Shown here one piece after another: positions 309 to 52,987 of a DNA stretch of 64,000 nucleotides (positions within the stretch are counted from its first letter, which is position 1; every line of letters begins with the position of its first letter). Below the pieces are notes generated by a model. It ran no database searches. It saw nothing but the letters and a program-made list of their open reading frames with translations, and was not told the origin of the DNA. Source of the DNA: Oscillospiraceae bacterium. Lineage in GTDB: Bacteria > Bacillota > Clostridia > Oscillospirales > Acutalibacteraceae. The stretch lies in contig SVQA01000009.1 in assembly GCA_015065545.1 (NCBI GenBank), positions 19,016 through 83,015 on the forward strand, given 5' to 3'. The position numbers and the translations under genes were made by a program.

Positions 309-985
309 TCACGCAATCTGCGTAATAACAAGATGAGCAGAAACAGGACGCGTTCCTCCTGCAAGAGGAGTGATTGTCAATGCTACAGCATTACCTGCAG
401 GATTTCGAACGGTCAAAACAGAGTTAATAACAGTAGTTGATACTATAGCCATACCTACAATCTGTGATGCACCTGTTGCTCTTCCAAACACAGTATATTC
501 CAAATCCTCTCCGTTTAAAGTCAACAATAATTGACCTGCTTCATCTACACTTACTTCAAACAGTACCTGATACGTTCCGATTTAAGCCAGATTAAACGAA
601 TCCGCTCCGAGTCTGGAAATATATCAGCACCGCTATTGGGTCCGTCTTGCGGGAAACTAACATCAGTTCCCGGAGCTACCGTTGCCGCATTATCAGGTGG
701 CATTAACGCATAAAAATCTGCATAGTTAAGCACACCTCCTGCAGGACCCTGAGGACCTATGGGACCTACAGGTCCCTGTACCCCCATTAAACCTCTCGGT
801 CCTATGGGTCCTTGAGGTCCTATGGGGCCCTGCTCCCCTGGAGGTCCTTGAGGACCAGGAGGACCAGGGAGGCACTCAGGACAACAAAAGCCACAAGAAC
901 ATTTGTTATCTAAGCTACTTTTTGAACAACTATCATCGTCATTTTCATAACATTTATTGTTATTACTACAATTCCATATTTTCAT
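309..985 (-). pseudogene. BclA-like collagen-repeat exosporium-type protein, disrupted by a frameshift (~612-622) and an in-frame TAA (582-584)
   Basis: Cys-rich N-terminus, then GPx triplets ([18 protein letters not shown]...). After ADI the C-terminal domain continues in another frame ([35 protein letters not shown]...) and joins ORF 309..527. RBS GGAGGTG upstream of the ATG at 985. Confidence 0.8.
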
Positions 986-1456: not shown

Positions 1457-2010
1457 ATGACCGATAAAATCAAAGAATTTCGAGATGGTATCTTTGCCCT
1501 TCGTACTCGAGATTCGGCACCATTGCCGAGCTTATGATAGAAACCCTTTACAGTTTTACAAAATCCCACAATCAGTTTCACGACCGATACGACGAAGCCG
1601 GACACCAAAGAATCGAAATAAAATTCTCAACTGTTATGAAAGCCAACGATGCCGCTATCAACCGCGAAAACGCCATTGAACAATGCAAGAAAGCAAACCT
1701 TGGAAACCGTGCACTTAACAGTACAGATATGTTAAGCCATAAATTTGATTGCAACATACAGCAGGTAAAATGCTCGGAGTTTGACGTTCTATACTATGGT
1801 CTGTTTTTTGCTGACCGCATCGCAATTTTCAAAATGACCTCAGATGAGCTTCCCGCTTGCCTCGGATATTCCGATAAACAACATAAAGGAAACAAAGGTG
1901 AGGGGCAATTCCACCTAAACAACAAAACTATAGATTTTCATACACAAAGCCACTTTGTTCAGTGGCTTACATACGAAGAGCTGTACGAGCTGTTAGATAC
2001 CAAGAAATAG
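1457..2010 (+). pseudogene. Putative type II restriction endonuclease with a 1-nt frameshift near 1509
   Basis: RBS AAGGAG then ATG 1457 (MTDKIKEFRDGIFALRTR), shifting into the 1534 frame (RFGTIAELMIETLY...). PD-(D/E)xK-like HDRYD...RIEIKFS motif. Convergent with and overlapping the 3' end of an N6-adenine MTase. Confidence 0.6.
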
Positions 2011-4161: not shown

Positions 4162-4286
4162 AGCCGCCTCCAAATTCTTTAATGATTTAACTATACTCTC
4201 TCCTGCGAACAATGTCAACATTAATGATCTAAACGAATTTGTCCTTAATTTATTGAGCTAAGTAAACTCATAAATAATGCTTTTAA

Positions 4287-17672: not shown

Positions 17673-19049
17673 TTAACCTAAATAAATGTCATCTCGGGTA
17701 TATGAATATTCCACATCGTTTACAAACTGTGTCACACCCTCTACATCTTCCCTTTCAACCTCGAATAAGGTCAGGCGGTAATCCATATCACAAGGACCTG
17801 AAGTCGGCTGTGTAACATATCTTTTGATAGTCAGGGTGTCACCCTCTACTGTCAGAGAACCGAAGTTCTGACTGCTTCCGCTACCGCCAATAATAAAGAA
17901 CGTTACAATAAGGGCGTTATCCTCAAAATAACTATCATCATACCTTGTGGGAAGTTCAACCCTGCTCATATATTCTGTATCGACCTTGCTGAAAATCTCC
18001 TGAAGCTCCTGGGCATTTTTCGGAATAAAGCTTACAGGCTCCCAATCATGATTGTACATTCCCACTCTGTATTCATCAAAACCTTTAATATCAATATATC
18101 TTTTGCCATCGGGGGTTTCGGGATTCTGTGGTTTGTCGCTCTTATACTCGATAGCCTCGATTGCTATTTTCAACTCTTCAATAGCTTCTTCTACTATACT
18201 TGCCTCGTCCCAACTCTCACAATTGTAAGCAGACAAGGCATTACTTTCTGCACGCATATAAGTGTTGAAACTCTCGGCTGTAAGGGTTTTGCCTACGGTG
18301 AGTTCCTGTCCCTGTTCTATAAGAGCAAGAAGTTCTATTCTTAAATCCACTATATAGAGATTGTAGTAAATATATCTGTTTTTGATAATTCCTGCAAGGA
18401 ACTTCTGAATTTCGGTAGCATCATTTATGTTGATCTGACCGTCACGGTTTATATCAACAGAAAGAAGTCTTTTTTCGGAAAGAGTCACAATACCTGCAAG
18501 GTGCTTCTGAATCTCGGTTACATCCTTGATATTTACTTTTCTATCACCATTGCTGTCACCGAAGATAAGGCTCTCAAGATTCTCGTAGGCTTTTAAGAGT
18601 TCATCAGCAAGCATAAGCAGTTCTTCTGTCGTGTAAATATCATCATAAGCATTGAGATGTGCCATTCCGGCATTTACCTTTGCAGTAATGTACACTTCAT
18701 AAGATTCATCGGTATAATGTTTCTCGTTTACACCCTGTGTGGCTTCAATCACACTTACAAGATATGCATAAGCTTCATCAAAGGACGCGTCTGCAAGTAT
18801 CTCGTCATCGGTTGAAATCTCATCGGATGTGGAAACTTCATCATCTGTTGACACTTCGTCAGATGTGGAAACTTCATCATCTGTTGCAACCTCATCTGAT
18901 GTGGAAATTTCATCATCTGTTGACACTTCGTCAGATGTAGCTACACCTGTGACCAATACATCCGAAAATTCCTGTGCAGATACAAAGGTCACCGACAACG
19001 ATAAAATCAAAAGGCTCACCAATAACATTGATAATAATTTTTTAAACAT
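17673..19049 (-). CDS. Secreted dockerin protein: acidic xxTxDE repeats, FIVAR-like helices, dockerin, PrcB_C-like domain
   Basis: Signal peptide; GDSNGDRKVNIKDVTEIQK / DINRDGQININDATEIQK dockerin pair; YTDES helical module; C-terminal YFEDNALIV...GSGS...DM. Confidence 0.8.
   Translation of the reverse strand: MFKKLLSMLLVSLLILSLSVTFVSAQEFSDVLVTGVATSDEVSTDDEISTSDEVATDDEVSTSDEVSTDDEVSTSDEISTDDEILADASFDEAYAYLVSVIEATQGVNEKHYTDESYEVYITAKVNAGMAHLNAYDDIYTTEELLMLADELLKAYENLESLIFGDSNGDRKVNIKDVTEIQKHLAGIVTLSEKRLLSVDINRDGQININDATEIQKFLAGIIKNRYIYYNLYIVDLRIELLALIEQGQELTVGKTLTAESFNTYMRAESNALSAYNCESWDEASIVEEAIEELKIAIEAIEYKSDKPQNPETPDGKRYIDIKGFDEYRVGMYNHDWEPVSFIPKNAQELQEIFSKVDTEYMSRVELPTRYDDSYFEDNALIVTFFIIGGSGSSQNFGSLTVEGDTLTIKRYVTQPTSGPCDMDYRLTLFEVEREDVEGVTQFVNDVEYSYTRDDIYLG
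18790..18950 (-). repeat. In-frame 18/36-nt tandem repeat encoding (V/I)(S/A)T(S/D)DE hexapeptides
   Basis: atgtggaaacttcatcatctgttgacacttcgtcag-like units repeated about 3.5 times; about nine hexapeptides in the protein. Confidence 0.9.
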
Positions 19050-19162: not shown

Positions 19163-19792
19163 TTAATAAATTCTAATGACCTTATTTCCACTGTCTACAG
19201 AAACTGAAGCACCATTCCATCTGGCAATAGCACTTGCCATAGAGGGTAAATCTATATAAACCTCCTCATCAATCATTTCGCGGATGGGATTTTCTATTCC
19301 GTAAGGAAGATAAATGCAGAAATTCTCGTACTCTGTATTTATATACAGTTCATCGTTACCATACCATAGGGAAAGCTCCGTATCGGTTAACCATTCTACC
19401 TCTGCACCAAATTCTTTGCCAATTAACAAAAGAGGAAGTGCCGGTTCGTCATATCCTTCATACATGGGCAAATAAGCAGATACCTCTTTGCCTTTAACAA
19501 CAAGACTCCATTCCTTAATCTCGTCCTTTTTAGGATCTGTTGGTTTTGGAATAGTAACGATAACCTGTGCTGTAGGCTGAGGTTCAACATAACCATCACT
19601 TGTCAGTTTTGTTTCTTCCACCGACGCTGAAGATGTTGCATTTACAGAAGAAGGCTCTGTAGCACCGATAACCTGTGATTCAGTTTTTTCGGATTCTGAA
19701 ACCTCCTTCGGATCATTTTTTTCAGAAGATGAACAACCTACAAGCCCAATAAGCAGAAGCAGAATAAAAAGTAATATAAAAAATCTTCTCAT
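19163..19792 (-). CDS. Lipoprotein, possibly with copper-amine-oxidase N-terminal (stalk)-like domain
   Basis: Lipobox LVGC; Ser/Thr/Pro linker; PLLLIGKEFGAEVEW...YIDL...GASVSVD. Confidence 0.6.
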   Translation of the reverse strand: MRRFFILLFILLLLIGLVGCSSSEKNDPKEVSESEKTESQVIGATEPSSVNATSSASVEETKLTSDGYVEPQPTAQVIVTIPKPTDPKKDEIKEWSLVVKGKEVSAYLPMYEGYDEPALPLLLIGKEFGAEVEWLTDTELSLWYGNDELYINTEYENFCIYLPYGIENPIREMIDEEVYIDLPSMASAIARWNGASVSVDSGNKVIRIY

Positions 19793-19834: not shown

Positions 19835-22387
19835 TTATTCGGAAATTATATGAACTAAAATATCTTTGCCTAAATCTTCACAAGCTTTAAGCCCTGCAAG
19901 ATGCTTCTGAATCTCTGTTGCATCCTTGATATTAACCGCACCATCGCGGTTAGCATCAGCGGTAAATTTGCCATTCTCCTCAAGGTTATTAAGCCCTGCC
20001 ACACATTTCTGTATAAAAGTTGCGTCCTTGATTGTTACCTTTCCGTCTTTGTCAACATCACCGAGAGTCACATATAACTCGTCGGGTGTAGGTTCATCGG
20101 GAGAGGGCTCAACGGGAGGAGCATCGTTAAGCAGCACGAGAGATTCCATCGCACTCTGAAGCTTCTGTGCAGCTAAATAATACTCCGAGTCACTCTGACC
20201 ATAATAGTAAGTTCCCATAGCATCCGAATAAGCATCGCTATAAACAGACCAACTTTCACCGGTGTAATCTGCTCTCTCTCCTACATCAATCTGTGATTTT
20301 TCTATCACATTCCAAAGGGTCTGCTTTGCCTCGGATGAAACAGGAGGTGCTGTCAAACCTCTGATAGCCTCTGAAACAAGATCTATCTGTTCCACAATTT
20401 CGTTGGTAGTTGCATTTATGTTATCATAAACCAGTCTTGCCTTGTCAAGAGCATCGAGAAGTTGTTTGTAAGACTCGGATGTGTAGTTACCTCCCACAGG
20501 AGCACCTGCTCTGACAATCTTATAAAGTTTTTCACGGGCATTTTTATGAAGCTCATCCATTGCATCATAAAGATCAATAACAGCAAATACATATTCCTCT
20601 TCGATAGAATTTTCGGAATTTAACACTTCAGCCGCATAGGTCTGTACTCTTGTAAACTCGCTCCAGATTTCAGTATCAAAATGGTCAGAAAACACAATTT
20701 TTTCCGACTTTGAAAGGACCTCGGCAAGTGCTTTCTTCTTGTCTTCGGGAATGGGAACAATTTCTTTGAGATTACGATATGCTTCTTCTAATGTTTCTTT
20801 AGCCTTTAAAACTTCCTCTATGCTTGCATCCTCGTTTTCGTAAACTATAGTTGCGTTGGCTATAGCACTTTCCAGAGCCTTTATAGATTTGGAAGTAAAC
20901 TCACCTTCAGGTACACCTTGTTCAATAAGCAAAAGAAGCTCTGCACGAGCAACCTGACGTTCTGCATCTGCAGAAACAAGGCTCTCCATAGCTACACCAA
21001 GGGCATTGGCTGCATTTATAAATTCATTGTCACTTTCGCCATTTTCTAGCACTCTTACAGCCTCAAGGTATGCCTTGATGTAAACACTCCAACTTTCAGG
21101 GGTATAGTTTTCTTCCCCGGAAACCTCATCCCGTGCCAAAGAGATTACATCCGAAAGAAAATTACGAGCTTCTTCAGAAACAATTACTTTTTCCAAAAGC
21201 TTAATAGAATCTTGAAGCTTTGTGTTTTCTGCCTGAAGTTCCTGTAAGGTTGCGTCCTCTTTGACATAAACTGCATTTGCATTATCCAAAGCAAGCTCTA
21301 AACCTTCTACAGATTCTTTGGTGTATTTTTCGCCGCTATTAAGGATTCCGTGAGCAGTATTGATTGTATTCAGCAACTCGTTTTTTGCTCCAATAATGAG
21401 TACATCAACCTTTACAAGCGAAGTCATAGCTTCTCCCAAAGTATTGGCTGCAGAAATAAACTCCTCTTCGCAAGTGCCGAGGCTCTGTACTCTTTTAGCC
21501 TCCTGATATGCATCAAAATACACTCCCCAGCTCTCTGGAGTGTAATCCTTCTCGTCAAAAGCCTTTGCGTCCGCCTGAGAAATTACTCCCGACAAGTACT
21601 CACGCACCTGTGCAGAAATAGTAATCTCTTCCATATAATTCATTGTATTTTCTAATTTATCTGCTTCATAATAAAGCATCTGTGCTGTTGCTGATGTATT
21701 GTAATAAACCTCGTTTGCTGACTCGATTGCTGCTTCCAGCATCTGCAAAGATTCTGCTGTAAAGTTTGAATCACTGTCAAGAGTATTATAGGCTTTGTTA
21801 ATCACAAGCCGCAGATAATCACGAGCCTGAGAAACATTTGAAGCAACAGGCACAAGATTTTTTACAGCAGTATTCAGAGCTTCTGCAGCAGCAATCGCTT
21901 CTTCGTCTGACTGTGCCTGAGTCTGCATACGCTTTGCCTCCAGAAGAGCCGCATAATACACCGTATATGATTCGGGAGTGTAATCAAGCTCTGTGCTTAC
22001 CTTAGATTCAGCCATAACTATTGCAGAGGACAGATAATAAGCTACGTTCTCAGAAACACCCTTCTTCTTCATATTATCTATTGCAGATTTGAGCTTTTTA
22101 GCCTGTAGGTTCATCTGTTCGGCTGTAGCACTCGGATTATAATAAACGCTGTAAGCCTCGCCCATCGCCTGCTCCAGAACCGCACAAGACTCTGGAGTAT
22201 ATGTATTTATATCGGGAGATTGGAGAATTTTTACGGCTTCATCCAGCAATCCTTCCAGATACTCCTTTGCATCTTCGACATCTGCACTTACACTTAAAAG
22301 TTCAGCCTCCTGTGCCGATACAAAGGGCACAGACAAAGAGAAAATCATAAGAACAATAAGTAATATAGAAAGCATCTTTTTAAGCAT
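19835..22387 (-). CDS. Secreted protein of ten ~70-aa FIVAR-like helical repeats with C-terminal dockerin
   Basis: Signal peptide; repeated YT(P/x)ES...A..L..A...L modules; GDVDKDGKVTIKDATFIQK / ADANRDGAVNIKDATEIQK. Confidence 0.85.
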   Translation of the reverse strand: MLKKMLSILLIVLMIFSLSVPFVSAQEAELLSVSADVEDAKEYLEGLLDEAVKILQSPDINTYTPESCAVLEQAMGEAYSVYYNPSATAEQMNLQAKKLKSAIDNMKKKGVSENVAYYLSSAIVMAESKVSTELDYTPESYTVYYAALLEAKRMQTQAQSDEEAIAAAEALNTAVKNLVPVASNVSQARDYLRLVINKAYNTLDSDSNFTAESLQMLEAAIESANEVYYNTSATAQMLYYEADKLENTMNYMEEITISAQVREYLSGVISQADAKAFDEKDYTPESWGVYFDAYQEAKRVQSLGTCEEEFISAANTLGEAMTSLVKVDVLIIGAKNELLNTINTAHGILNSGEKYTKESVEGLELALDNANAVYVKEDATLQELQAENTKLQDSIKLLEKVIVSEEARNFLSDVISLARDEVSGEENYTPESWSVYIKAYLEAVRVLENGESDNEFINAANALGVAMESLVSADAERQVARAELLLLIEQGVPEGEFTSKSIKALESAIANATIVYENEDASIEEVLKAKETLEEAYRNLKEIVPIPEDKKKALAEVLSKSEKIVFSDHFDTEIWSEFTRVQTYAAEVLNSENSIEEEYVFAVIDLYDAMDELHKNAREKLYKIVRAGAPVGGNYTSESYKQLLDALDKARLVYDNINATTNEIVEQIDLVSEAIRGLTAPPVSSEAKQTLWNVIEKSQIDVGERADYTGESWSVYSDAYSDAMGTYYYGQSDSEYYLAAQKLQSAMESLVLLNDAPPVEPSPDEPTPDELYVTLGDVDKDGKVTIKDATFIQKCVAGLNNLEENGKFTADANRDGAVNIKDATEIQKHLAGLKACEDLGKDILVHIISE

Positions 22388-30416: not shown

Positions 30417-30565
30417 ATTAAAAGCCTCCGAAATATTTTCTTTTAAAACATTTCTATGATTCAAAACTTCATATTATTCCCTTATTAAAATCACATTTTG
30501 TATTGAAAAATTCACAATTATATAGTAAAATATAAGTATCTATTGCAAACGGAAGGTATATTTCA

Positions 30566-31318
30566 ATGAAATCAAAATCCATATTGGCTTTTTGCCTTTG
30601 TCTTCTTCTTTGTTGCAGTCTGTTTCTGACTGCCTGCAACAAAGAATATAGCTCACAGAAGGCTTCCGCCGACACAGTAACCACCACCTCTGCTGTTTCT
30701 ACAGAAGATGAGGCTATGCAGTTAATCACCGGCATAGAGACAACTTCTGAAGTTAGCACTTCCACCGAAGCTCCCACAACAGAGGCACAAACCACAGTCC
30801 CCAAAAAGACAACTGCTCCTCAAAAGCAGGAAACTCCCCAGCAAAATAATGACGGCGGAAACAACTCAAGCGCAGGACCTGTTGACAGCAAGCCTATGAC
30901 CTGCACCATAACTGTGGGCGAAAAGAACCTTAAGGCAGAATACGGCGATGTCCTCACCTATACATACTATTTAAAGACACCAAAAATGATTGAAAATGTA
31001 CAGGCAGCCGTTAATTACACCCCAAACTGCCTGCAACTTATTGATGATAAGATTGAAACCACACTCCCTGTTATCCATTCAGGTGCAATTATCAACACAG
31101 AGAATCAGGGTGTTGTCAAATACAACGCAATCAACATTTCAGGCTTTGACTTCAGAGAAGAGGGTGTGCTCATTACTCTCCGCTTTAAAGTTATCTTCGG
31201 CGGCAGCGGTGCAATTGTAAATGCCATTGAATTTATGGACGAAAAGGGTGCCGAGGTCGCTTACGTTGACAACTTCAAAATGTCCAAAGATATTAAAATC
31301 AGAGAAGAATTAAAATAA
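30566..31318 (+). CDS. Lipoprotein with Thr/Glu/Pro linker and C-terminal cohesin-like domain
   Basis: Lipobox LTAC; linker; GDVLTYTYYL...VNYTPNCLQLI...VKYNAINISGFDF...GVLITLRFKV pattern typical of cohesin beta-sandwich. Confidence 0.6.
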   Translation: MKSKSILAFCLCLLLCCSLFLTACNKEYSSQKASADTVTTTSAVSTEDEAMQLITGIETTSEVSTSTEAPTTEAQTTVPKKTTAPQKQETPQQNNDGGNNSSAGPVDSKPMTCTITVGEKNLKAEYGDVLTYTYYLKTPKMIENVQAAVNYTPNCLQLIDDKIETTLPVIHSGAIINTENQGVVKYNAINISGFDFREEGVLITLRFKVIFGGSGAIVNAIEFMDEKGAEVAYVDNFKMSKDIKIREELK

Positions 31319-31338: not shown

Positions 31339-32152
31339 ATGAAATCTAAAAAATTTTTAAGTCTGCTTCTTGCAGGCACAATGATACTTGGCTCCTCGGT
31401 TGCTCTCTCTGGCTGTGATAAGGACGATGTAAAAACTGACACAACCGCATCTGCAACTCAAGCCACCGAAAATGAAGAAACCCCAACCGCTACTTCACAA
31501 GTAACCACTACAAACAAGGAGACTCCATCCGATATGAAAGCTTACAAACCCACTCTTAATCCCGAAATCAAAAAAGACACAGAAAATACTATCGGCTATC
31601 AGCTGGAAATGCCAAAGGCAGGCGACCAGATTGCTGTTATCCACACCACTATGGGCGACATCACTCTACAACATCCGCGGTTCCGTATCTATGGCAAACT
31701 CAGGTAAGAACACAAACGGCAGCCAGTTCTTTATCAACCAGTCAGGTGCAGAAAGCTTCAGCCGCTCATCTTACGATTATCAGGACGGTATCGACTTCAC
31801 CGAGCTTTACAATGAGCTTATTACCTATTATCCAGAATATGTTTCCTACTATGGTGAGACTTTCAAGGCACAGTATCCCACAGAAGAGGATTTTGTAGCA
31901 TACTATCTTTCTCAGCAGTTCTCTCCCTTAAAATCCGAGGTTCCCGAGGAGGTTTGGAAGCTTTACGAAGAGAACGGCGGTAACATTCACCTTGATGGTG
32001 CTCTCAGAATCTCCGGCGGTCACACAGTATTCGCTCAGGTTATTGAGGGTATGGATGTAGTAGATGCTATCGCAAAGGTTGAGGTTGACAGTGAAACCAA
32101 CAAGCCCAAGACCGACGTTAAAATCACAACTGTAGAAATTAAAACCTACTGA
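31339..32152 (+). pseudogene. Lipoprotein cyclophilin-type PPIase with an apparent 200-nt internal deletion and frameshift
   Basis: Lipobox LSGC; GDITL joins directly to YNIRGSVSMAN in another frame at CTCT 31664-31667; the intact paralog downstream has 200 nt between the equivalent CTCT copies. Confidence 0.85.
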
Positions 32153-32239: not shown

Positions 32240-33142
32240 ATGAACGCAAAAAAAATCATCAGCATGACTCTTGTAATCCTGCTCGCATTCGGTGCAATCT
32301 TTGCTATGACAGGCTGCAAGAAAACTTCCGAGAAGTATCATCCCGACGCACAGGAAGTTACTAACCTTGAGGGTTACGAAGTTGGCTATCAGCTCGAGAT
32401 GCCCAAAGACGGCGACCAGATTGCTATCATCCACACAACTATGGGTGACATCACTCTCCGTCTCTTCCCCGAGGCAGCTCCCAAAGCTGTTGAGAACTTC
32501 ATTGCTCTCTCCGAGGCAGGCACATACAACGGAACACTCTTCCACAGAGTTATCAACGACTTTATGATTCAGACAGGCGACTACGAGAAGGGCGACGGCA
32601 CAGGCGGTAAGAGCACATGGGACGAGGCTTTCGAAGACGAGTTCACAAACAAGCTCTTCAATATCAAAGGTGCTGTTTCTATGGCTAATAACGGTGTTGA
32701 CTCCAACGGCAGCCAGTTCTTCATCAACACAGCAAGCCCCGACGCCTTTGACGCAGATGCTATAGATTTCGATACAATGTACGATCAGATGGTTGATTCC
32801 TACGAAATGATGAAGGAATACTATGGTTATCAGTTCTACAAATCATTCAAGAATGCCGATGACTACATCAGAGCTTCTCAAGAAGAAGGCGGTGCAGGCG
32901 GCATCTACCCCTTAAGCTACGAAATTCCTGAGGAAGTTCTTGAGCTTTACAAGAAGAACGGTGGTAACATCCATCTTGACGGCGCATTCAGAGAGAGCGG
33001 CGGTCACACAGTATTTGCTCAGGTTATCGACGGCTTTGATGTTGTAGACAAGATTCAGAAGGCAGCTGTTGACGAGAACAACAAGCCCACTACAGACATC
33101 AAGATCACTTCCATCGAAATCACAACCTACAAAGCAAAATAA
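32240..33142 (+). CDS. Lipoprotein cyclophilin-type peptidyl-prolyl isomerase with large insertion
   Basis: Lipobox MTGC; FHRVINDFMIQTGD, GAVSMAN, NGSQFFI, HLDG...HTVFAQV. Confidence 0.93.
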   Translation: MNAKKIISMTLVILLAFGAIFAMTGCKKTSEKYHPDAQEVTNLEGYEVGYQLEMPKDGDQIAIIHTTMGDITLRLFPEAAPKAVENFIALSEAGTYNGTLFHRVINDFMIQTGDYEKGDGTGGKSTWDEAFEDEFTNKLFNIKGAVSMANNGVDSNGSQFFINTASPDAFDADAIDFDTMYDQMVDSYEMMKEYYGYQFYKSFKNADDYIRASQEEGGAGGIYPLSYEIPEEVLELYKKNGGNIHLDGAFRESGGHTVFAQVIDGFDVVDKIQKAAVDENNKPTTDIKITSIEITTYKAK

Positions 33143-33174: not shown

Positions 33175-34023
33175 ATGAGCGATAAACCGATAATCGCCAT
33201 AATGTATGACTTTGATAAAACCTTAAGCACTCGGGATATGCAAGATTTTGCTCTTATTCCGAGTCTCGGAATGGAGTCAAGCGACTTCTGGCAGGCGGCA
33301 AATGACTTTGGCAGAGAGCAAAAGATGGACGGTATACTGGCTTATATGTACACCGCTATCCGTGAATCGCGCCGACACAACAAGCCCCTGCGACGAGAAA
33401 ACCTCCTTGCCCACGGCAAGTATGTTGAATTCTTCCCCGGTGTCGAAACTTGGTTTAACAGAATCAATGAATACGCAAAAACTCAAGGTGCAGAGGTCGA
33501 GCACTACATAATTTCTTCGGGAATGAAGGAAATTATCGAGGGTACTCCAATAGCCAATGAATTCAAAGAAATATTCGCCTGCGAATACTACTTTGATGAA
33601 AATGGTGATGCTGTCTGGCCTAAAACCGCAGTTAACTATACAAACAAAACCCAGTTTGTTTACCGAATAAACAAGGGTGTGCTTGATGTATCCAACGACA
33701 CCGACCTTAACCGCTCAATGCCTGACGACTCAAAACGTGTTCCATTTACCAATATGATTTACTTAGGTGATGGACTTTCAGACGTTCCATGTATGAAAAT
33801 GATGCAGGCTTACGGCGGCACATCTATTGCGGTTTATCCCGAAGGTCAGAGAAACAAGGTTGAGGAGCTTCTGCTCAAGGACAGGGTAAACTTCATCTTC
33901 CCTGCAGATTACAGACAGGAAAGCGAGCTCTCAAAGGCTATGGAGAGCATAATCCGTAAAATTGCAATCTGCGACACCTTAACCGAAATCTCTGAAGCTC
34001 AACTTAAAAGTATCAATAGCTAA
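33175..34023 (+). CDS. HAD-superfamily hydrolase
   Basis: YDFDKTL (motif I), ISSG (II), K, YLGDGLSDVP (IV). Confidence 0.88.
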   Translation: MSDKPIIAIMYDFDKTLSTRDMQDFALIPSLGMESSDFWQAANDFGREQKMDGILAYMYTAIRESRRHNKPLRRENLLAHGKYVEFFPGVETWFNRINEYAKTQGAEVEHYIISSGMKEIIEGTPIANEFKEIFACEYYFDENGDAVWPKTAVNYTNKTQFVYRINKGVLDVSNDTDLNRSMPDDSKRVPFTNMIYLGDGLSDVPCMKMMQAYGGTSIAVYPEGQRNKVEELLLKDRVNFIFPADYRQESELSKAMESIIRKIAICDTLTEISEAQLKSINS

Positions 34024-34187
34024 CACAGAAGGCATAGTTCAAATCTGAACTATGCCTTTCTTTTATATAATGAATGGATATTGTTTAAATACATTATTTA
34101 GTTAAACTTCGATATAATAGAAGAACACCGCTTCCCAAAAGAGAAGCGGTGTTTTGTTAGCTTTATAGGGAGTAAATCACTATGTGA

Positions 34188-37184
34188 TTACATATCTTCC
34201 CACATATTTGTCTGCTGGTTGTATGCTTTATCCCATTCGATTGTAAGGTCACCTGTCTGCTGACCGTTACCGCCGTTATTGAATACTACTCTGTTGTACT
34301 GATCACTAATCTGGCATCTGTAGATACCGTTACCCATTGACTCCATCTGAAGACCGGGCCACTCTGCAGCAGAGCCGCCGCCGTCTGTCCATACGTGACA
34401 ATGCAAGTTACCCCAGTCGAGAGTATTCTTAAAGTAGATATAATCTCCATCGGGTACAGGAGGATTGGGGTCATCTGTTCCGGGACCGGGATCGGGGTTA
34501 TTGGGAAGCAGAGAAGGATCAAGGGGGAACTTTGTAACGTCTACAACATCAGAAAGTAAACCTGCCCAATCGTTCTTTGCCATATCAAAGATTGCAAAGT
34601 TATCGGGAATTACAAGGTCATCTGTCTGTGCACCGCCGTTATCATTGAAGATAATTCTGTTAGCAGACTTATCTACCATTGCAAAGTAGTAGCCGCCGCC
34701 AACGGACTGCATCTGTGTGCCGGGCCATGCGTCGTAAGCGTCACCGCCGTCAGTCCAAGTATGAGTATAGGGATTAGAATAGCTTGAGTTGATAAGAACG
34801 ATTACATTTGTATCAAGCTGTGTAAGGTCAACTGTGCCGTCAGGCTGAATAGGTGTAGTATCTGTTGTGGGCAGTGTGGGAATCACAGGATTATCTGCAG
34901 GTTTTGTTGTGGGCTTGGTTGTAGGATTAACAGGTGTATCCTCACTGCCCTTATAGAGAACATTCTCGCCGATAGCAAAGCCTGTCTCAATATCTGCAAC
35001 ACATTTCTGAATAGCTGTTGCATCCTTAACGTTTACTGTTTCGCTGCCGTCAACATTAGCTGCAAACTTAGCCTTGTCATCAAAACTCTCAAGACCTGCA
35101 ACGAATTTCTGAACAGCAGTTGCATCCTTAACATTTACCTTACCGGAAAGGTCTGCGTCACCGAGTACTACATACTCTGCAGGAATGTTAATGTTGCCGT
35201 TGCTTGTGGGGATTGTTGTGGGCTTTGTTTCTGTTGTAGGAGTAGAGGGAATGGGCTGTGTGGGCTTAGTTGTGGGAATCTCTGCACCTGCTGCAAGCTC
35301 AACAAGGATTGTGCCGTGTGCACCGGAGTTGAAGATTACTTTGCCATTCTCTACAGTAGCTGTCTTGCCGTCATAAGCATTGCGAACTGTTGCACCGTTA
35401 GCAAATGTGTTGCCGAGAGTAATTGTAATGTTTGTGTTGTTGTTTGCACCAACTACACAAGCTACGTTATCTGTAACGCCGCCTTTATTATATGTACGGG
35501 CAAATGCTACACCGTTTGTAGCGTTGAGGTTTGTGTGTGCACCTGCACCAACTGCAACGTGGTTGTTACGGAATGTACCAACCTTCTGCCAGTGGTCAAG
35601 AACCTTTGAAGCCTCGCTGGAGGAATTGGAAAGTTCGGACCAGTTCATAAAGCCTCTGGGCTTATGATCGGGAATGGAGCAGTCTACAAGCTGTCTGTTG
35701 GATTCGTCGCCGTAGAAGATCTGAACACCACCGGGGAGAAGCAGGAATGCAGAACCCTGATAGTAGATATCATTACGGCAAAGACCTGTATCGTGAGAAG
35801 AAATGTATGTGAGTACATTGAAGTTGTCGTTTGTGTTGATCTTACCTGCGTAACTTGCATAAGTTTCGTTGAGGTTACCAACCTTCTTCATACCATCACA
35901 GCCTGAACCTGTGCTGGATCCTGTTAAGGAGAAGTTAATCATAGAATCAAAGCCGTTCTGGTAATACTGGTTGTAGTCAACACCCTGACCGTAGTTTTCA
36001 CCTGTCATCCAGAACTCTTCGTCCCAGTTTGCACCGGGTGCATTGGGGTTAGCCTTTCTCCAGTTCTCAAGAGCTTTTGTACAAGCTGTGGAGAGAGCCT
36101 TCCAAGACTCCTGCTCAACGTGCTTTGCTGTATCGCAACGGAAACCGTCGATACCAAACTGCTCAACCCACTGTGCATACCAAGCAACAAGGTGGTTACG
36201 AACTGTTCTGCCGCTGAGGTTATACTTCTGGAATGTAGCGTTAAGCTCATTCATCTTCTGGCTGTATGTACCCTCTTTTGTCCACTTTGTCTTGAGGTAT
36301 GTGGGAACATCTGAGAAAGTCTTTGTGGATTCTGTCTTAAAGTCGGGGAGATATACCTGAGAGTTTGTCAGGTCATTTGTGCCGTCTGCTTTGTAGCCTG
36401 CAAGACCTGCACGAATCCAATCTGCACCCCACCATCTGAGCCAAGCATTAGGATCAGAGTCGTAGTCGATTACGCTGTGGTAATTATCCTGGCTGATCTT
36501 GGAGAAATTAAAATACTTATCCTGCCAACCGTTCTTAAGAGTACCGAAGTTGTACTCGTTCATATCATAGATTGTATTATAGCCGGGGTGATTAAGAACT
36601 ACGTCAAGAACAATACGGATGCCCTTGCTGTGAGCTGTATCAATCATCTCTTTGAACTCTGCTTCTGTACCGAAGTTCTTATCAAGCTCAGAGAAATCAG
36701 CGCCATAGTAGCCGTGGTAAGCATAGTGTGCAAAGCTCTGTTTACCGTCACCGCCTACTGTGTAGCCGTGAATCTGCTCAAACCAACCGGCAACCCAGAT
36801 TGCGTTTACACCAAGGTCTGTGAAATAACCTTCGTTAAGCTTCTTGGTAATACCTTTGAAGTCACCACCCTGGAAGGTTGCAACATTACCGTTGAAGGTA
36901 GAGCTACCATTTCTGATTGTACCATAATCAACCTTATTGCCATTTTTGTCAAGTCCGCGATTATAGCTGTTGTCGTTACTTGTGTTACCGTTGTTAAAAC
37001 GGTCTGTGAGAAGGAAGTAAACTGTTGCGTTGTCCCAAGTGAAGTCGTTTGCTGCTTTGGGATATGCAACTGCTGTTTCTGCTACCTGAGTTTCGGCAGC
37101 CTGAGTAGTGAAACCAATTGCAAAGACAGACACTAAAGTCATAATTGCAAGGATAACACTGAGAAGTCCTTTAGCTCTTTTCAT
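34188..37184 (-). CDS. Secreted GH13 alpha-amylase (MalS/GH13_19-like) with internal dockerin and two CBM26-like starch-binding modules
   Basis: FTWDNATVYFLLTDRF, DVVLNH, GFRCDTAKHV, TGENY, ISSHDT; dockerin GDADLSGKVNVKDATAVQK; WPGTQM / WPGLQM modules; GAAAGGA RBS before ATG 37184. Confidence 0.92.
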   Translation of the reverse strand: MKRAKGLLSVILAIMTLVSVFAIGFTTQAAETQVAETAVAYPKAANDFTWDNATVYFLLTDRFNNGNTSNDNSYNRGLDKNGNKVDYGTIRNGSSTFNGNVATFQGGDFKGITKKLNEGYFTDLGVNAIWVAGWFEQIHGYTVGGDGKQSFAHYAYHGYYGADFSELDKNFGTEAEFKEMIDTAHSKGIRIVLDVVLNHPGYNTIYDMNEYNFGTLKNGWQDKYFNFSKISQDNYHSVIDYDSDPNAWLRWWGADWIRAGLAGYKADGTNDLTNSQVYLPDFKTESTKTFSDVPTYLKTKWTKEGTYSQKMNELNATFQKYNLSGRTVRNHLVAWYAQWVEQFGIDGFRCDTAKHVEQESWKALSTACTKALENWRKANPNAPGANWDEEFWMTGENYGQGVDYNQYYQNGFDSMINFSLTGSSTGSGCDGMKKVGNLNETYASYAGKINTNDNFNVLTYISSHDTGLCRNDIYYQGSAFLLLPGGVQIFYGDESNRQLVDCSIPDHKPRGFMNWSELSNSSSEASKVLDHWQKVGTFRNNHVAVGAGAHTNLNATNGVAFARTYNKGGVTDNVACVVGANNNTNITITLGNTFANGATVRNAYDGKTATVENGKVIFNSGAHGTILVELAAGAEIPTTKPTQPIPSTPTTETKPTTIPTSNGNINIPAEYVVLGDADLSGKVNVKDATAVQKFVAGLESFDDKAKFAANVDGSETVNVKDATAIQKCVADIETGFAIGENVLYKGSEDTPVNPTTKPTTKPADNPVIPTLPTTDTTPIQPDGTVDLTQLDTNVIVLINSSYSNPYTHTWTDGGDAYDAWPGTQMQSVGGGYYFAMVDKSANRIIFNDNGGAQTDDLVIPDNFAIFDMAKNDWAGLLSDVVDVTKFPLDPSLLPNNPDPGPGTDDPNPPVPDGDYIYFKNTLDWGNLHCHVWTDGGGSAAEWPGLQMESMGNGIYRCQISDQYNRVVFNNGGNGQQTGDLTIEWDKAYNQQTNMWEDM

Positions 37185-51640: not shown

Positions 51641-52852
51641 TCAGAAAATGGGATAATCCTTCTCAAAGAGCACGTCTTCATAAAGGAAAAGTTTGTTTAT
51701 TCCTTGTGTTAATTCCTTAGAAACCTCAACATAACATCCTACATATTTCATATCGTCGGTATATCCACATCCGGGCTTAAGGTCCACAATACAGCCTTCA
51801 AAATAAATTGCATCTCCCTGCTTATAAAGAGCTTTCACCTCGTAGTCGATGCAACCGCTTCCAAAAACCTTATTTACAAATACAAGATTGTTATTCTCAA
51901 AAAACTCCTCGGTATAAACATCGCTGTTTTCACCGAATACACCAAAATACTCCTCGGTATTTGTAATATATTCCGCAACCTCTTTTTCCCTAAAATATTT
52001 TTCTGTCAGTTTTACATCACAATCCAGCTTCTCTGCATCTTCGGGAATATCGGTAGAGGTTATTCCTTCATTCCTCCAATAGTTAAATGGCAGGTCTGCA
52101 AGGTACTTCTGTATGTTAGTTACGTCCTTGACATTCACCTTGTAGTCTCCATCAAAATCGGAATAAGCGTAGCAAAACATCGCATAAATATCCTCTATGA
52201 CATAGCCCTCAACTCCTGCAAGGAACTTCTGAATATATGTTGCATCCCTTACTGTAATTTCGCCATCTGCATCTGCGTCGCCGATTTTTCTTGCTATACC
52301 CTCTTCGTCACACCAATCTTTGAGGTCTTCAAAGTTTGCTTTTACCGCATCTTCAAGGATCAGTACTTCCTCCGTCTCGGGAATCACTACATAGTAGCCA
52401 AGTCCAAGATAGCAAGAAACTCCGTAGTGTATTTCATTCGTGTATATACGGTCTCCAATCTTTACATCCGCATTTTCAACCTCAGAATCGGTTTCATCAA
52501 AGTTTATATCGAAAACTGCATAGTCAACAGTAGCCTCGTTTTGATACACACAAACCATATCGATTGTATAAGAAATCTCATAGTTACCCCAAGGTCTGTC
52601 CCCTTCAAAGCGGTTAACTCCGCCCATCTGTTTGAGCATATATTCCCACACAAGCTGTGTGAGTGCCGATTCGTCAAATGTTGCTTCGTCAGTTGTAGCC
52701 TCAGAAGTATCATCTTCGTCCTTTGATGCTTCGTCCGAGGTAACACCTATGCCTGTGCTATTCTCTGTATCTGCCTCCTGTGCAGAAAACGAGAAGCTCC
52801 CCATAGAAATCACCATAATAAAAGAGAGTAAAAATGCCAATATCTTTTTCAT
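51641..52852 (-). CDS. Secreted dockerin protein with acidic xTxDE N-terminus and PrcB_C-like C-terminal domain
   Basis: Signal peptide; GDADADGEITVRDATYIQK / DFDGDYKVNVKDVTNIQK; YTEEFFENNNL...GSG...TDDM; AAAGGAG RBS before ATG 52852. Confidence 0.8.
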   Translation of the reverse strand: MKKILAFLLSFIMVISMGSFSFSAQEADTENSTGIGVTSDEASKDEDDTSEATTDEATFDESALTQLVWEYMLKQMGGVNRFEGDRPWGNYEISYTIDMVCVYQNEATVDYAVFDINFDETDSEVENADVKIGDRIYTNEIHYGVSCYLGLGYYVVIPETEEVLILEDAVKANFEDLKDWCDEEGIARKIGDADADGEITVRDATYIQKFLAGVEGYVIEDIYAMFCYAYSDFDGDYKVNVKDVTNIQKYLADLPFNYWRNEGITSTDIPEDAEKLDCDVKLTEKYFREKEVAEYITNTEEYFGVFGENSDVYTEEFFENNNLVFVNKVFGSGCIDYEVKALYKQGDAIYFEGCIVDLKPGCGYTDDMKYVGCYVEVSKELTQGINKLFLYEDVLFEKDYPIF

Positions 52853-52987
52853 AAAAAACACTCCTTTCAAAGCTTTTTCGCTTTTCATTTATTAGACGAT
52901 ATTAAATATATAGACCTCACAAAAATTTTTAATTATTTTACAAAAACTGCCCTCTTAAACATAAAAGAGAGCAGTAGGCTTTGCATA

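What the first reader, a model, noticed from the sequence alone, without database searches (positions are those of the whole stretch)
30566..31318. Lipoprotein-anchored cohesin: a possible new way to tether an amylosome-like complex
Seen: lipobox (LTA-C), an ~85-aa Thr/Glu/Pro/Gln linker, then a ~130-aa domain (from ~30896) with the cohesin-like strand pattern GDxxTYTYYL..., VNY...LQL, VKYNA...GFDF...GVLITLRFKV. Established: ruminococcal scaffoldins are usually sortase-anchored, and clostridial ones SLH-anchored. Inference: a membrane-tethered monovalent scaffoldin that captures the dockerin amylase encoded 3 kb away and the other dockerin proteins. It is the first gene of an apparent operon with two lipoprotein foldases. 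This is the best protein-level candidate for an undescribed system in the window.
Basis: partly seen in the sequence, partly recalled or inferred. Interest (0 to 1): 0.75.

Follow-up and report, generated by a model that had tools for sequence, protein, structure and literature searches.

The report
Lipid-anchored cohesin in a starch-degrading Ruminococcus
This gene encodes a small surface protein that is predicted to be fastened to the cell membrane by a lipid, carries a flexible stalk, and ends in a cohesin, the docking module gut Ruminococcus use to assemble starch-degrading enzyme complexes; this way of anchoring a cohesin did not turn up in the literature searched.

Summary
ORF 30566-31318 (250 aa) has a canonical lipoprotein signal peptide (lipobox LTA-C, Cys24), an ~85-aa disordered Thr/Ser/Glu/Pro stalk and a C-terminal cohesin. 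Pfam's cohesin model misses the query. However, a family profile hits R. bromii Sca5 cohesin 2 (7urp, E=7e-13), and the AlphaFold model (pLDDT 93-98) matches only cohesins in the PDB. About 60 family sequences were inspected and all keep the lipobox Cys, a 61-106-aa stalk and a terminal cohesin. In 19 of 23 genome loci, and in three divergent members, the gene heads a cassette of cohesin, 1-3 lipoprotein cyclophilins and a HAD hydrolase, next to a divergent S1 gene. Cohesin-less relatives, including R. bromii strains, have S1|PPIase-HAD directly. So the gene is a clade-specific addition, not the positional orthologue of Sca1-5. Paralogues use VPPTG sortase signals or C-terminal TM helices, which makes the lipobox a third anchoring solution. 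The window encodes four dockerin proteins, one an Amy4-like amylase 3 kb away. Lipidation, surface exposure and dockerin binding remain untested. Verdict: a real feature and a new variant of a known kind (anchoring scaffoldin). Interest is moderate.

The parts
30503..30531 (+). sigma-70-like promoter candidate (TTGAAA-17-TAAAAT, 10/12) upstream of the cohesin gene
   Evidence: This is a consensus match only: the region holds 9 such sites against 8 expected.
30551..30556 (+). ribosome-binding site GGAAGG, 9 nt before the ATG
   Evidence: read directly from the sequence
30566..30637 (+). type II (lipoprotein) signal peptide, residues 1-24, lipobox L-T-A-C with Cys24 at 30635-30637
   Evidence: Cys24 is invariant in alignment A1. 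A lipobox is present in all family members inspected.
30638..30889 (+). disordered Thr/Ser/Glu/Pro/Gln-rich stalk (residues 25-108), with a degenerate copy (SADTV) of the family motif [ST][PA]DE[AV] near its membrane end
   Evidence: pLDDT 32-53. Family linker length is 61-106 aa.
30890..31318 (+). cohesin module (residues 109-250) plus stop codon; the protein ends with the last beta-strand and has no C-terminal anchor
   Evidence: AlphaFold pLDDT 93-98. Foldseek top 50 are all cohesins, best 7urp and 7uvg. Profile against PDB gives 7urp at E=7e-13. PF00963 hits family members.
31339..32152 (+). lipoprotein cyclophilin-type PPIase gene (lipobox LSGC), a pseudogene in this strain: a ~190-nt deletion plus frameshift near 31665 removes ~63 codons of the catalytic core
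   Evidence: The same broken form is in L024. An intact form exists in related strains in runs X8 and X10.
32240..33142 (+). intact lipoprotein cyclophilin-type PPIase (300 aa, lipobox MTGC)
   Evidence: PF00160 E=1.6e-45; N-terminus read
33175..34023 (+). HAD-family hydrolase (282 aa, no signal peptide), last gene of the unit
   Evidence: PF12710 E=3.4e-8; conserved position
34028..34059 (+). first + strand terminator-like hairpin after the unit; a second, bidirectional one lies at 34122-34155
   Evidence: There is no + strand terminator between 30566 and 34023.
34188..37184 (-). convergent secreted GH13 alpha-amylase with a dockerin (about 35004-35162) and two CBM26 modules; a candidate ligand
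   Evidence: Pfam. The GH13 core is closest to R. bromii Amy4, 9qf3, E=1.7e-178.
17673..19049 (-). secreted dockerin protein (458 aa); a candidate ligand
   Evidence: PF00404 E=3.4e-11
19835..22387 (-). secreted FIVAR-repeat dockerin protein (850 aa); a candidate ligand
   Evidence: PF07554 and PF00404
51641..52888 (-). secreted protein with a partial dockerin (first repeat only; 415 aa)
   Evidence: PF00404 E=1.9e-4, below the gathering score; sequence

Best explanation
The gene encodes a monovalent, lipid-anchored anchoring scaffoldin of an amylosome-like system in an uncultured gut Ruminococcus related to, but distinct from, R. bromii. Proposed mechanism: (1) The N-terminal type II signal peptide sends the protein through Sec. 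Lgt adds a diacylglycerol to Cys24 and LspA cleaves before it, leaving the mature protein held in the outer leaflet of the cytoplasmic membrane. This step is inferred from the sequence and from family-wide conservation. (2) The ~85-residue disordered Thr/Ser/Glu/Pro stalk, with a contour length of about 32 nm at 0.38 nm per residue, acts as a spacer that lets the C-terminal module reach into or through the cell wall. This step is inferred, and is supported by linker length scaling with anchor depth across the three anchor classes. (3) The C-terminal cohesin binds, in a Ca-dependent way, the dockerin of one secreted partner and so tethers it to the cell. The partner could be an enzyme such as the Amy4-like amylase 3 kb away, or a dockerin-bearing adaptor. 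This step is inferred by homology to R. bromii cohesins whose dockerin binding has been measured. (4) The gene was inserted at the head of an older lipoprotein-cyclophilin/HAD transcription unit and is probably co-transcribed with it. The gene order is shown; co-transcription is inferred.
For: Cohesin identity: the AlphaFold model has pLDDT 93-98 over residues 110-250. All 50 best Foldseek PDB matches are cohesins, led by R. bromii Sca5 Coh2 and Coh1 (E=3.4e-9 and 6e-7). The family profile hits 7urp at E=7e-13, plus type II cohesins and the Amy4 cohesin. PF00963 hits homologues. An exhaustive profile search finds 1,165 representative clusters, many of them polyvalent scaffoldins with 3-10 copies. 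Lipoprotein: the n-, h- and lipobox regions are canonical. Cys24 is invariant in 15 of 15 aligned sequences. A lipobox is present in all 19 syntenic genome orthologues, in 18 of 18 further 50%-identity cluster representatives, and in all 60 sequences listed. Paralogous cohesins in the same clade instead carry type I signal peptides plus VPPTG sortase signals or C-terminal TM helices. There is no C-terminal anchor. Stalk: median linker length is 73 aa for lipobox, 60 aa for TM and 47 aa for sortase forms. Ligands exist: four dockerin proteins are encoded in the window. R. bromii cohesins of this type bind amylase dockerins experimentally (PMC4611034, PMC5814915). Unit structure: intergenic gaps are 20, 87 and 32 nt, there is a promoter-like site upstream, and terminators occur only after the HAD gene. 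The cassette is conserved in 19 of 23 loci and in three divergent members. The cohesin gene is intact in all strains seen, even where the adjacent PPIase gene has decayed.
Against: Nothing here shows lipidation, surface exposure or dockerin binding. Pfam's cohesin model does not hit the query itself even at E<=1. An 85-aa stalk would have to be nearly fully extended to cross a typical 20-40 nm Gram-positive wall (general knowledge, not measured for this organism), so the cohesin may sit inside or under the wall. The amylase is not next to the cassette in every genome. Because the PPIase-HAD unit predates the cohesin gene, co-location may be opportunistic. No RNA data were available. The conserved [ST][PA]DE[AV] motif near the lipid anchor is unexplained and could be a release site.
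Confidence: 0.6

Rival explanations
1. Membrane-proximal assembly or folding station. The lipid-anchored cohesin stays beneath or within the wall. There it transiently captures the dockerins of newly secreted, Pro/Thr-linker-rich amylosome proteins as they leave the Sec channel, holding them next to the co-encoded lipoprotein cyclophilins for prolyl isomerisation before they move on to wall-anchored scaffoldins.
For: The cohesin gene is fused to the head of a lipoprotein cyclophilin unit in every family locus examined, and all partners are lipoproteins. PPIase copy number is 1-3 in cohesin-containing loci but 1 in cohesin-less loci. The stalk is short relative to a Gram-positive wall. The clade also has sortase-anchored cohesins that could serve as the final display sites.
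Against: The PPIase-HAD unit exists without the cohesin in relatives, including R. bromii. One of the two PPIase genes has decayed in this strain while the cohesin is intact. No direct PPIase-cohesin link was found (the PPIases have no dockerin). Conserved gene order within a collinear clade is weak evidence of coupling.
Confidence: 0.15
2. Released, cell-free monovalent cohesin. The protein is shed, either by proteolytic 'shaving' near the lipid anchor or by signal peptidase I cleavage. It then acts in solution, as is presumed for R. bromii Sca3 and Sca4, for example as a cap or competitor that regulates which dockerins occupy cell-bound scaffoldins.
For: Single-cohesin R. bromii Sca4 is regarded as cell-free (PMC12663171). 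A conserved short motif, [ST][PA]DE[AV], lies 6-18 residues after the lipidated Cys in 47 of 60 members against ~1.6 expected, and it could be a processing site. Lipoprotein shedding is known in Firmicutes (general knowledge).
Against: Strict conservation of the lipobox Cys and of a long stalk in all members would be unnecessary for a protein that is simply secreted. Paralogues meant for other fates use ordinary type I signal peptides. The motif is degenerate in the window's own copy.
Confidence: 0.12
3. The domain has a cohesin fold but another ligand. It would bind something other than a dockerin (carbohydrate, host molecule or another cell-surface component), as some non-cellulosomal cohesin-like and Ig/CBM-like beta-sandwiches do.
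For: Pfam's cohesin model misses the query. Identity to solved cohesins is only 9-20%. No binding data exist. The cohesin diverges much faster than its neighbours (~41% versus ~80% identity).
Against: There are no CBM or generic Ig hits among the 50 best fold matches. Its nearest solved relatives are R. bromii amylosome cohesins with proven dockerin binding (PMC5814915, PMC9112005). The same cohesin type is repeated in polyvalent scaffoldins. The genome carries many dockerins.
Confidence: 0.08

Closest known systems
R. bromii Sca5 and Sca2 (sortase-anchored amylosome scaffoldins; Sca5 cohesins solved as PDB 7uvg and 7urp)
   Same: They are the closest solved relatives of the cohesin module by both sequence profile and fold. 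They play the same role of holding dockerin-bearing amylases at the cell, in the same starch-degrading Ruminococcus lineage.
   Different: Their anchor is a C-terminal sortase signal that links them covalently to peptidoglycan, not an N-terminal lipid. Sca5 has two cohesins plus X25 starch-binding modules, whereas this protein has one cohesin and nothing else. Identity is only ~20%. R. bromii has no gene at the syntenic site.
R. bromii Sca4 (L2-63_00829), a single-cohesin scaffoldin 'presumed cell-free'
   Same: It is a small scaffoldin with one cohesin, and it binds the dockerins of the GH13 amylases in vitro (PMC4611034).
   Different: It is not at the S1|PPIase-HAD locus, so it is not the positional orthologue. 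No family member was found in heavily sampled human R. bromii. Its sequence and signal-peptide type could not be retrieved here, so a distant relationship, or an unnoticed lipobox in Sca4, remains untested.
C-terminal transmembrane-anchored single-cohesin proteins (R. difficilis, Ruminococcus spp. JE7B6, zg921, zg924 and HUN007; also H. luporum and C. cibarium)
   Same: They are monovalent cohesins tethered directly to the cytoplasmic membrane, in several cases in amylase-rich relatives of R. bromii (PMC13463774, PMC11557425). Homologous examples were seen here (P0044, P0048 and others).
   Different: Topology and chemistry are reversed. Those proteins run signal peptide, cohesin, linker, C-terminal TM helix. 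This one runs N-terminal lipid, linker, C-terminal cohesin. It forms a separate orthologous group with its own conserved locus.
VPPTG (LPXTG-like) sortase-anchored CBM26-cohesin proteins in tandem arrays (loci L020-L023)
   Same: They are the nearest paralogous cohesins (about 33-35% identity) and come from the same clade of animal-gut Ruminococcus.
   Different: They have a type I signal peptide, often an N-terminal CBM26, a C-terminal sorting signal and shorter linkers (median 47 aa).
Classical anchoring scaffoldins: R. flavefaciens ScaE (sortase); C. thermocellum SdbA, OlpB and Orf2p (SLH)
   Same: The logic is the same: a cohesin plus a cell-envelope anchoring device.
   Different: The anchoring devices differ (sortase or SLH versus lipobox). 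Those systems assemble cellulosomes, not starch-degrading complexes.
Lipoprotein foldases of Firmicutes (cyclophilin-type SlrA of Streptococcus pneumoniae; parvulin-type PrsA of Bacillus subtilis), recalled from general knowledge
   Same: The downstream genes are lipid-anchored extracytoplasmic PPIases of this general kind (PF00160 plus lipobox).
   Different: These are partners in the unit, not relatives of the cohesin. No link between such foldases and cohesin-dockerin systems turned up in the literature searches made here.

Membership tests
Cohesin module (Pfam PF00963 / cellulosome-amylosome cohesins) | Nine-stranded beta-sandwich (jelly-roll) cohesin fold | tested here: met
   The AlphaFold2 model has pLDDT 93-98 and is all-beta. 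The 50 best Foldseek PDB matches are all cohesins. The best is 7urp, with E=3.4e-9, TM 0.69 (normalised to the target) and rmsd 3.3 A.
Cohesin module (Pfam PF00963 / cellulosome-amylosome cohesins) | Significant sequence match to cohesin profiles | tested here: inconclusive
   The query alone gets no PF00963 hit at E<=1. The family does match: 2 of 15 homologues hit PF00963 (best 3.9e-8), many more distant relatives carry it, and the family profile hits R. bromii Sca5 Coh2 at E=7e-13, type II cohesins at 4e-5 to 5e-3 and the Amy4 cohesin at 0.017. So the feature is met at profile level but not by the curated single-sequence threshold.
Cohesin module (Pfam PF00963 / cellulosome-amylosome cohesins) | Ca-dependent binding of a dockerin | not testable with these tools
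A wet-lab assay is needed.
Cohesin module (Pfam PF00963 / cellulosome-amylosome cohesins) | Dockerin-bearing proteins encoded in the same genome | tested here: met
   Four are encoded in the 64-kb window, at 17673-19049, 19835-22387, 34188-37184 and 51641-52888.
Bacterial lipoprotein (Lgt/LspA substrate) | Signal peptide with a basic n-region, a hydrophobic h-region and the lipobox [LVIFM]-x-[GAS]-C | tested here: met
   MKSK / ILAFCLCLLLCCSLF / LTAC. There are weak N-terminal matches to several NCBIfam lipoprotein models.
Bacterial lipoprotein (Lgt/LspA substrate) | Lipobox Cys conserved across homologues | tested here: met
   It is invariant in A1 and present in all ~60 family sequences down to ~30% identity. 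Paralogues with other anchors lack it.
Bacterial lipoprotein (Lgt/LspA substrate) | Actual diacylglyceryl modification and LspA cleavage; lgt and lspA present in the genome | not testable with these tools
   This needs mass spectrometry, globomycin treatment or fractionation. The rest of the genome is not in the window.
Sortase-anchored scaffoldin (ScaE / Sca2 / Sca5 type) | C-terminal LPXTG-like motif, then a hydrophobic stretch and a basic tail | tested here: not met
   The protein ends ...DIKIREELK with the last cohesin strand. Paralogues do carry VPPTG signals.
SLH-anchored scaffoldin (SdbA / OlpB type) | SLH repeats | tested here: not met
   No SLH hit in Pfam, and there is no sequence beyond the cohesin.
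C-terminal TM-anchored single cohesins (PMC13463774) | Signal peptide, N-terminal cohesin, linker, C-terminal TM helix | tested here: not met
   The domain order is reversed and there is no C-terminal hydrophobic segment. True examples are shown.
R. bromii Sca4 orthologue | Same genomic position or close sequence identity to L2-63_00829 | tested here: inconclusive
   Position is not met. R. bromii 5AMG and ATCC 27255 have RmuC, one gene, PPIase, one gene, RavA, with no slot for a cohesin; this matches cohesin-less L030 and L031, and Sca4 lies elsewhere. Sequence could not be compared, because the Sca4 sequence was not retrievable.

The most novel reading that the evidence does not exclude
The lipid-anchored cohesin and the co-encoded lipoprotein cyclophilins form a membrane-proximal 'dockerin reception and folding station'. 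In this reading, cohesin-dockerin recognition is used to hand newly exported amylosome subunits to foldases at the membrane before they are passed outward to wall-anchored scaffoldins, as well as for final display. The conserved [ST][PA]DE[AV] motif next to the lipid anchor would be part of this machinery, or a regulated release site.
Probability: 0.15. Interest if true: 0.8.

Novelty: new variant of a known kind. Interest (0 to 1): 0.55.

Why it matters
How amylosomes and cellulosomes are fixed to the cell determines whether degradation products are captured by the producer or shared with the community. Until now the recognised anchors were SLH domains, sortase signals and, recently, C-terminal TM helices. 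A conserved family of lipobox-anchored cohesins (at least ~24 clusters at 50% identity, in ruminant and other gut Ruminococcus) adds a third or fourth solution. It shows that closely related starch degraders use several anchors in parallel, and it suggests that cohesins 'presumed cell-free' because they lack a C-terminal anchor should be re-examined for lipoprotein signals. It gives a compact natural module (lipobox, stalk, cohesin) for surface display in Firmicutes. Its fixed association with lipoprotein PPIases also offers a testable link between the secretion and folding machinery and the assembly of these complexes.

Tried and rejected
- **Pfam and NCBIfam on the query alone:** no cohesin hit. 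A family profile and a structure were needed.
- **Finding R. bromii Sca4:**
  - Full-text searches for its locus tags found nothing.
  - Supplements of PMC4611034, PMC12663171 and PMC13463774 are not held.
  - The profile search returned no protein named R. bromii.
  - S1-neighbour hits and cluster name look-ups gave only 'Ruminococcus sp.' MAG labels.
  - The question was only partly resolved, through the pan-genome table of PMC5814915.
- **PDB code 7URP in the literature:** nothing found. Its identity came from the Foldseek description.
- **First attempt at the exhaustive profile search:** It was redone with permitted sub-sequences.
- **RNA evidence for co-transcription:** no RNA runs hold the gene.
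- **Second lipoprotein (19163-19792) as a hidden cohesin:** no similarity to the family profile, so this was rejected.
- **The window amylase as the Amy16 orthologue:** considered because of its length and its CBM26/dockerin order. Rejected because its GH13 core is much closer to Amy4.
- **The break in the first PPIase gene as an assembly artefact:** rejected, because the same form occurs on independent contigs and an intact allele exists in related strains.
Full report
**1. What is there**

ORF 30566-31318 on the + strand encodes 250 aa. It has an ATG start preceded by GGAAGG at 9 nt. It has three parts.
- Residues 1-24, MKSKSILAFCLCLLLCCSLFLTAC, form a textbook type II signal peptide: two Lys, an uncharged hydrophobic core, and the lipobox L-T-A-C.
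- Residues 25 to ~108 are Thr/Ser/Glu/Pro/Gln/Ala-rich, and AlphaFold2 predicts them to be disordered (pLDDT 32-53).
- Residues ~109-250 form an all-beta domain modelled with pLDDT 93-98.

The protein ends with the last strand, so it has no sortase motif, no SLH repeats and no C-terminal hydrophobic segment.

**2. Is the domain a cohesin?**

Pfam's PF00963 does not hit the query even at E<=1, and phmmer against PDB sequences gives only a marginal cohesin hit (5g5d, E=0.4). The family evidence is much stronger.
- Fourteen homologues were found, and two of them carry PF00963 (best E=3.9e-8).
- A profile of the full-length family hits PDB 7urp at E=6e-7.
- A domain-only profile hits 7urp at E=7e-13, several type II cohesins at 4e-5 to 5e-3, and the cohesin of R. 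bromii Amy4 (9qf3) at 0.017.
- Foldseek of the model against the PDB returns only cohesins among its 50 best matches. The two best are 7urp ('Second cohesin module from Sca5 of Ruminococcus bromii', E=3.4e-9, TM 0.69) and 7uvg (first cohesin of Sca5, E=6e-7).
- An exhaustive HMMER search of 1.84 billion representatives finds 1,165 clusters at E<=1e-3 and 90 at E<=1e-30. Many are polyvalent scaffoldins with 3-10 copies of this cohesin type.

Dockerin binding itself remains untested.

**3. Is it a lipoprotein?**

- Cys24 is invariant in the 15-sequence alignment.
- All 19 syntenic orthologues recovered from GTDB genomes have a lipobox. The regex missed L013 and mis-placed L015, but both show LxAC on inspection.
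- All 18 further short representatives from the exhaustive search also have one: LTAC, LSGC, LCGC, LGGC, LVGC, LWGC and so on.
- Altogether ~60 sequences, down to ~30% identity, keep the same plan: 2-4 basic residues, a hydrophobic core, [LFMV]-x-[AGS]-C, a 61-106-aa low-complexity stalk, then a terminal cohesin.
- Paralogous single-cohesin proteins of the same clade have ordinary type I signal peptides instead. They end either in D-[VT]-P-P-T-G plus a hydrophobic stretch and RKK (an LPXTG-like sortase signal), often with an N-terminal CBM26, or in a plain C-terminal TM helix.

The lipobox is thus a specific, conserved property of one orthologous group, not an accident of a Cys-rich signal peptide. 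Linker length also follows anchor depth. The median is 47 aa for sortase-anchored forms (n=36), 60 aa for TM-anchored forms (n=55) and 73 aa for lipobox-anchored forms (n=45). This fits a spacer that has to start from the membrane.

**4. Genomic context**

The gene is followed at 20 nt by a lipoprotein cyclophilin gene (31339-32152). An intact lipoprotein cyclophilin (32240-33142) follows at 87 nt, and a cytoplasmic HAD hydrolase (33175-34023) at 32 nt. A promoter-like site lies at 30503-30531. The only + strand terminator-like hairpins come after the HAD gene, at 34028-34059 and at 34122-34155, the latter shared with the convergent amylase gene. Upstream and divergent are an S1-domain protein and RmuC.

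- In 19 of 23 loci from GTDB genomes the order is RmuC, S1 | cohesin lipoprotein, 1-3 cyclophilin lipoproteins, HAD.
- The same holds for three of the most divergent family members (L025, L026, L028).
- The Amy4-like dockerin amylase lies just downstream in about half of these loci.
- The neighbours are ~75-93% identical to the window's, but the cohesin proteins are only ~36-63% identical. It is by far the fastest-evolving gene of the neighbourhood.

**5. Origin, and relation to R. bromii**

In more distant relatives, where the S1 protein is 71-72% identical, S1 is followed directly by PPIase then HAD. Only 160-205 nt separate them, which leaves no room for another gene (L029-L031). The pan-genome table of PMC5814915 lists the following for R. 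bromii 5AMG and ATCC 27255: RmuC (n), PPIase (n+2), RavA ATPase (n+4), a hypothetical protein (n+5) and a transglutaminase (n+6). This is exactly the order of L030 and L031, with a single tag, the S1 position, between RmuC and the PPIase.

So the cohesin gene is a clade-specific addition at the head of an older lipoprotein-PPIase/HAD unit, and R. bromii proper lacks it at this site. The five known R. bromii scaffoldins are located elsewhere: Sca4 is L2-63_00829, and Sca2 and Sca5 are 01067 and 01064. None of the family's clusters is named R. bromii or is seen on more than a handful of contigs, although human R. bromii is very heavily sampled.

[quoted passage not shown] Its sequence could not be retrieved, so whether it has a lipobox, or is a very distant relative, remains open.

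The window's organism is an uncultured gut Ruminococcus. The exact protein occurs in 39 blocks of the assembly collection. The locus is fully held by several 'feces metagenome' runs and partly by sheep-gut runs. The related MAGs come from goat, roe deer and sheep, and from other samples whose host is not stated in the record titles.

**6. Candidate ligands**

The window encodes four dockerin proteins:
- 17673-19049;
- 19835-22387, which also has FIVAR repeats;
- the GH13-dockerin-2xCBM26 amylase at 34188-37184;
- 51641-52888, which has only a partial dockerin.

The amylase's catalytic core is closest to R. bromii Amy4 (9qf3, E=1.7e-178), but it lacks Amy4's cohesin. Three of the dockerins show two near-identical Ca-loop/helix repeats of the kind ...VN[IV]KDAT.IQK..AG....

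**7. Mechanism proposed**

Sec export is followed by Lgt/LspA processing at Cys24, which gives a lipid anchor in the outer leaflet of the membrane. The ~85-aa stalk has a contour length of about 32 nm, and the cohesin at its tip captures one dockerin-bearing partner. This makes the protein a monovalent anchoring scaffoldin.

- Shown here: the fold, the homology, the lipobox and its conservation, the architecture, the conserved cassette, and the presence of dockerins.
- Inferred: lipidation, reach through the wall, dockerin binding, co-transcription, and the identity of the partner.

The main rival, at about 0.15, is that the cohesin stays near the membrane and works with the co-encoded PPIases as a reception and folding station for newly exported dockerin proteins. 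Lesser rivals are release into the medium (0.12) and a ligand other than a dockerin (0.08).

**8. Comparison with what is known**

Anchoring scaffoldins are known with SLH domains (clostridia), with sortase signals (R. flavefaciens ScaE; R. bromii Sca2 and Sca5) and, more recently, with C-terminal TM helices (PMC11557425; PMC13463774, for R. difficilis and the rumen-associated strains JE7B6, zg921, zg924 and HUN007). Neither of those two surveys mentions lipoproteins or lipoboxes. A full-text search for cohesin + dockerin + lipoprotein + lipobox returned only general reviews and a genome paper.

The finding is therefore a new variant of a known kind: a known module and a known role with an unreported anchoring device and a distinctive, conserved locus. 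It is a sequence-based prediction, so interest is moderate (0.55).

**9. Side observations**

- The first PPIase gene has lost ~63 codons of its catalytic core, with a frameshift, relative to L001. The same allele is on an independent contig. Contigs of ~98%-identical strains in runs X8 and X10 carry ~190 extra bases at 31664-31667, so this is a recent strain-specific pseudogene.
- A short motif, [ST][PA]DE[AV], lies 6-18 residues after the lipidated Cys in 47 of 60 family members, against 1.6 expected from shuffles. It is absent from the PPIase lipoproteins of cohesin-containing loci but present in the PPIase leaders of the cohesin-less loci L030 and L031. Its function is unknown, and it is degenerate (SADTV) in the window's copy.

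Noticed in passing
window 31339-32152 (+): The first lipoprotein cyclophilin gene is split into two ORFs by a ~190-nt deletion plus frameshift near 31665, which removes ~63 codons of the catalytic core relative to the intact L001 orthologue. The same allele is on contig L024 and in run X1, but ~98%-identical strains in runs X8 and X10 carry the missing ~190 nt. It is therefore a recent, strain-specific pseudogene.
   Followed up: yes
window 30638-30700, and family-wide (alignments A1 and A3; P0259-P0309; L002-L019): A conserved short motif, [ST][PA]DE[AV] (typically ATPDEA), lies 6-18 residues after the lipidated Cys in 47 of 60 cohesin lipoproteins (1.6 expected from shuffles). It is degenerate (SADTV) in the window copy. 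It is absent from 26 PPIase lipoproteins of cohesin-containing loci, but present in the PPIase leaders of the cohesin-less loci L030 and L031. Its function is unknown; it could be a release site or a leader inherited from the ancestral PPIase gene.
   Followed up: partly
L020:86-4718, L021:7464-13696, L022:7317-13066, L023:4648-13064: Tandem arrays of 3-6 single-cohesin genes in related MAGs. They have the form SP-(CBM26)-cohesin-VPPTG sortase signal, or SP-cohesin-C-terminal TM helix. These animal-gut Ruminococcus therefore use several anchoring modes in parallel.
   Followed up: partly
window 19163-19792 (-): A 209-aa lipoprotein (lipobox LVGC) with a ~70-aa T/S/E/P linker is encoded between two dockerin-protein genes. 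It has no similarity to the cohesin profile. By eye, its C-terminal repeats resemble copper-amine-oxidase-N-type 'stalk' domains. There was no Pfam hit at E<=0.01.
   Followed up: partly
window 34188-37184 (-): The dockerin amylase has a GH13 core closest to R. bromii Amy4 (9qf3, E=1.7e-178). Unlike Amy4, it carries no cohesin, and its module order is GH13-Doc-CBM26-CBM26.
   Followed up: partly
window 30566-31318 compared with its flanks, across L001-L019: The cohesin protein is only ~36-63% identical between genomes whose flanking S1, RmuC and HAD proteins are 75-93% identical (63% versus 90-97% for L001). This points to strongly accelerated divergence of the surface protein.
   Followed up: partly
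window 30575-30637: The hydrophobic core of the signal peptide is unusually Cys-rich (CLCLLLCC), and this recurs in many family members.
   Followed up: no
window 551-985 (-) and 1993-4221 (-): There is a small ORF with collagen-like GPP/GPQ triplet repeats (PF01391, E=7.8e-8). Next to it is a 742-aa Eco57I/TaqI-C-type N6-adenine methyltransferase with HTH domains (a type IIG-like R-M enzyme).
   Followed up: no
one search hits P0244-P0257 (not in the window): Large polyvalent scaffoldins (up to 3,685 aa, with 4-7 cohesins of this same type) exist in related metagenomic organisms. Amylosome-like systems in this clade can therefore be much more elaborate than in R. bromii L2-63.
   Followed up: no
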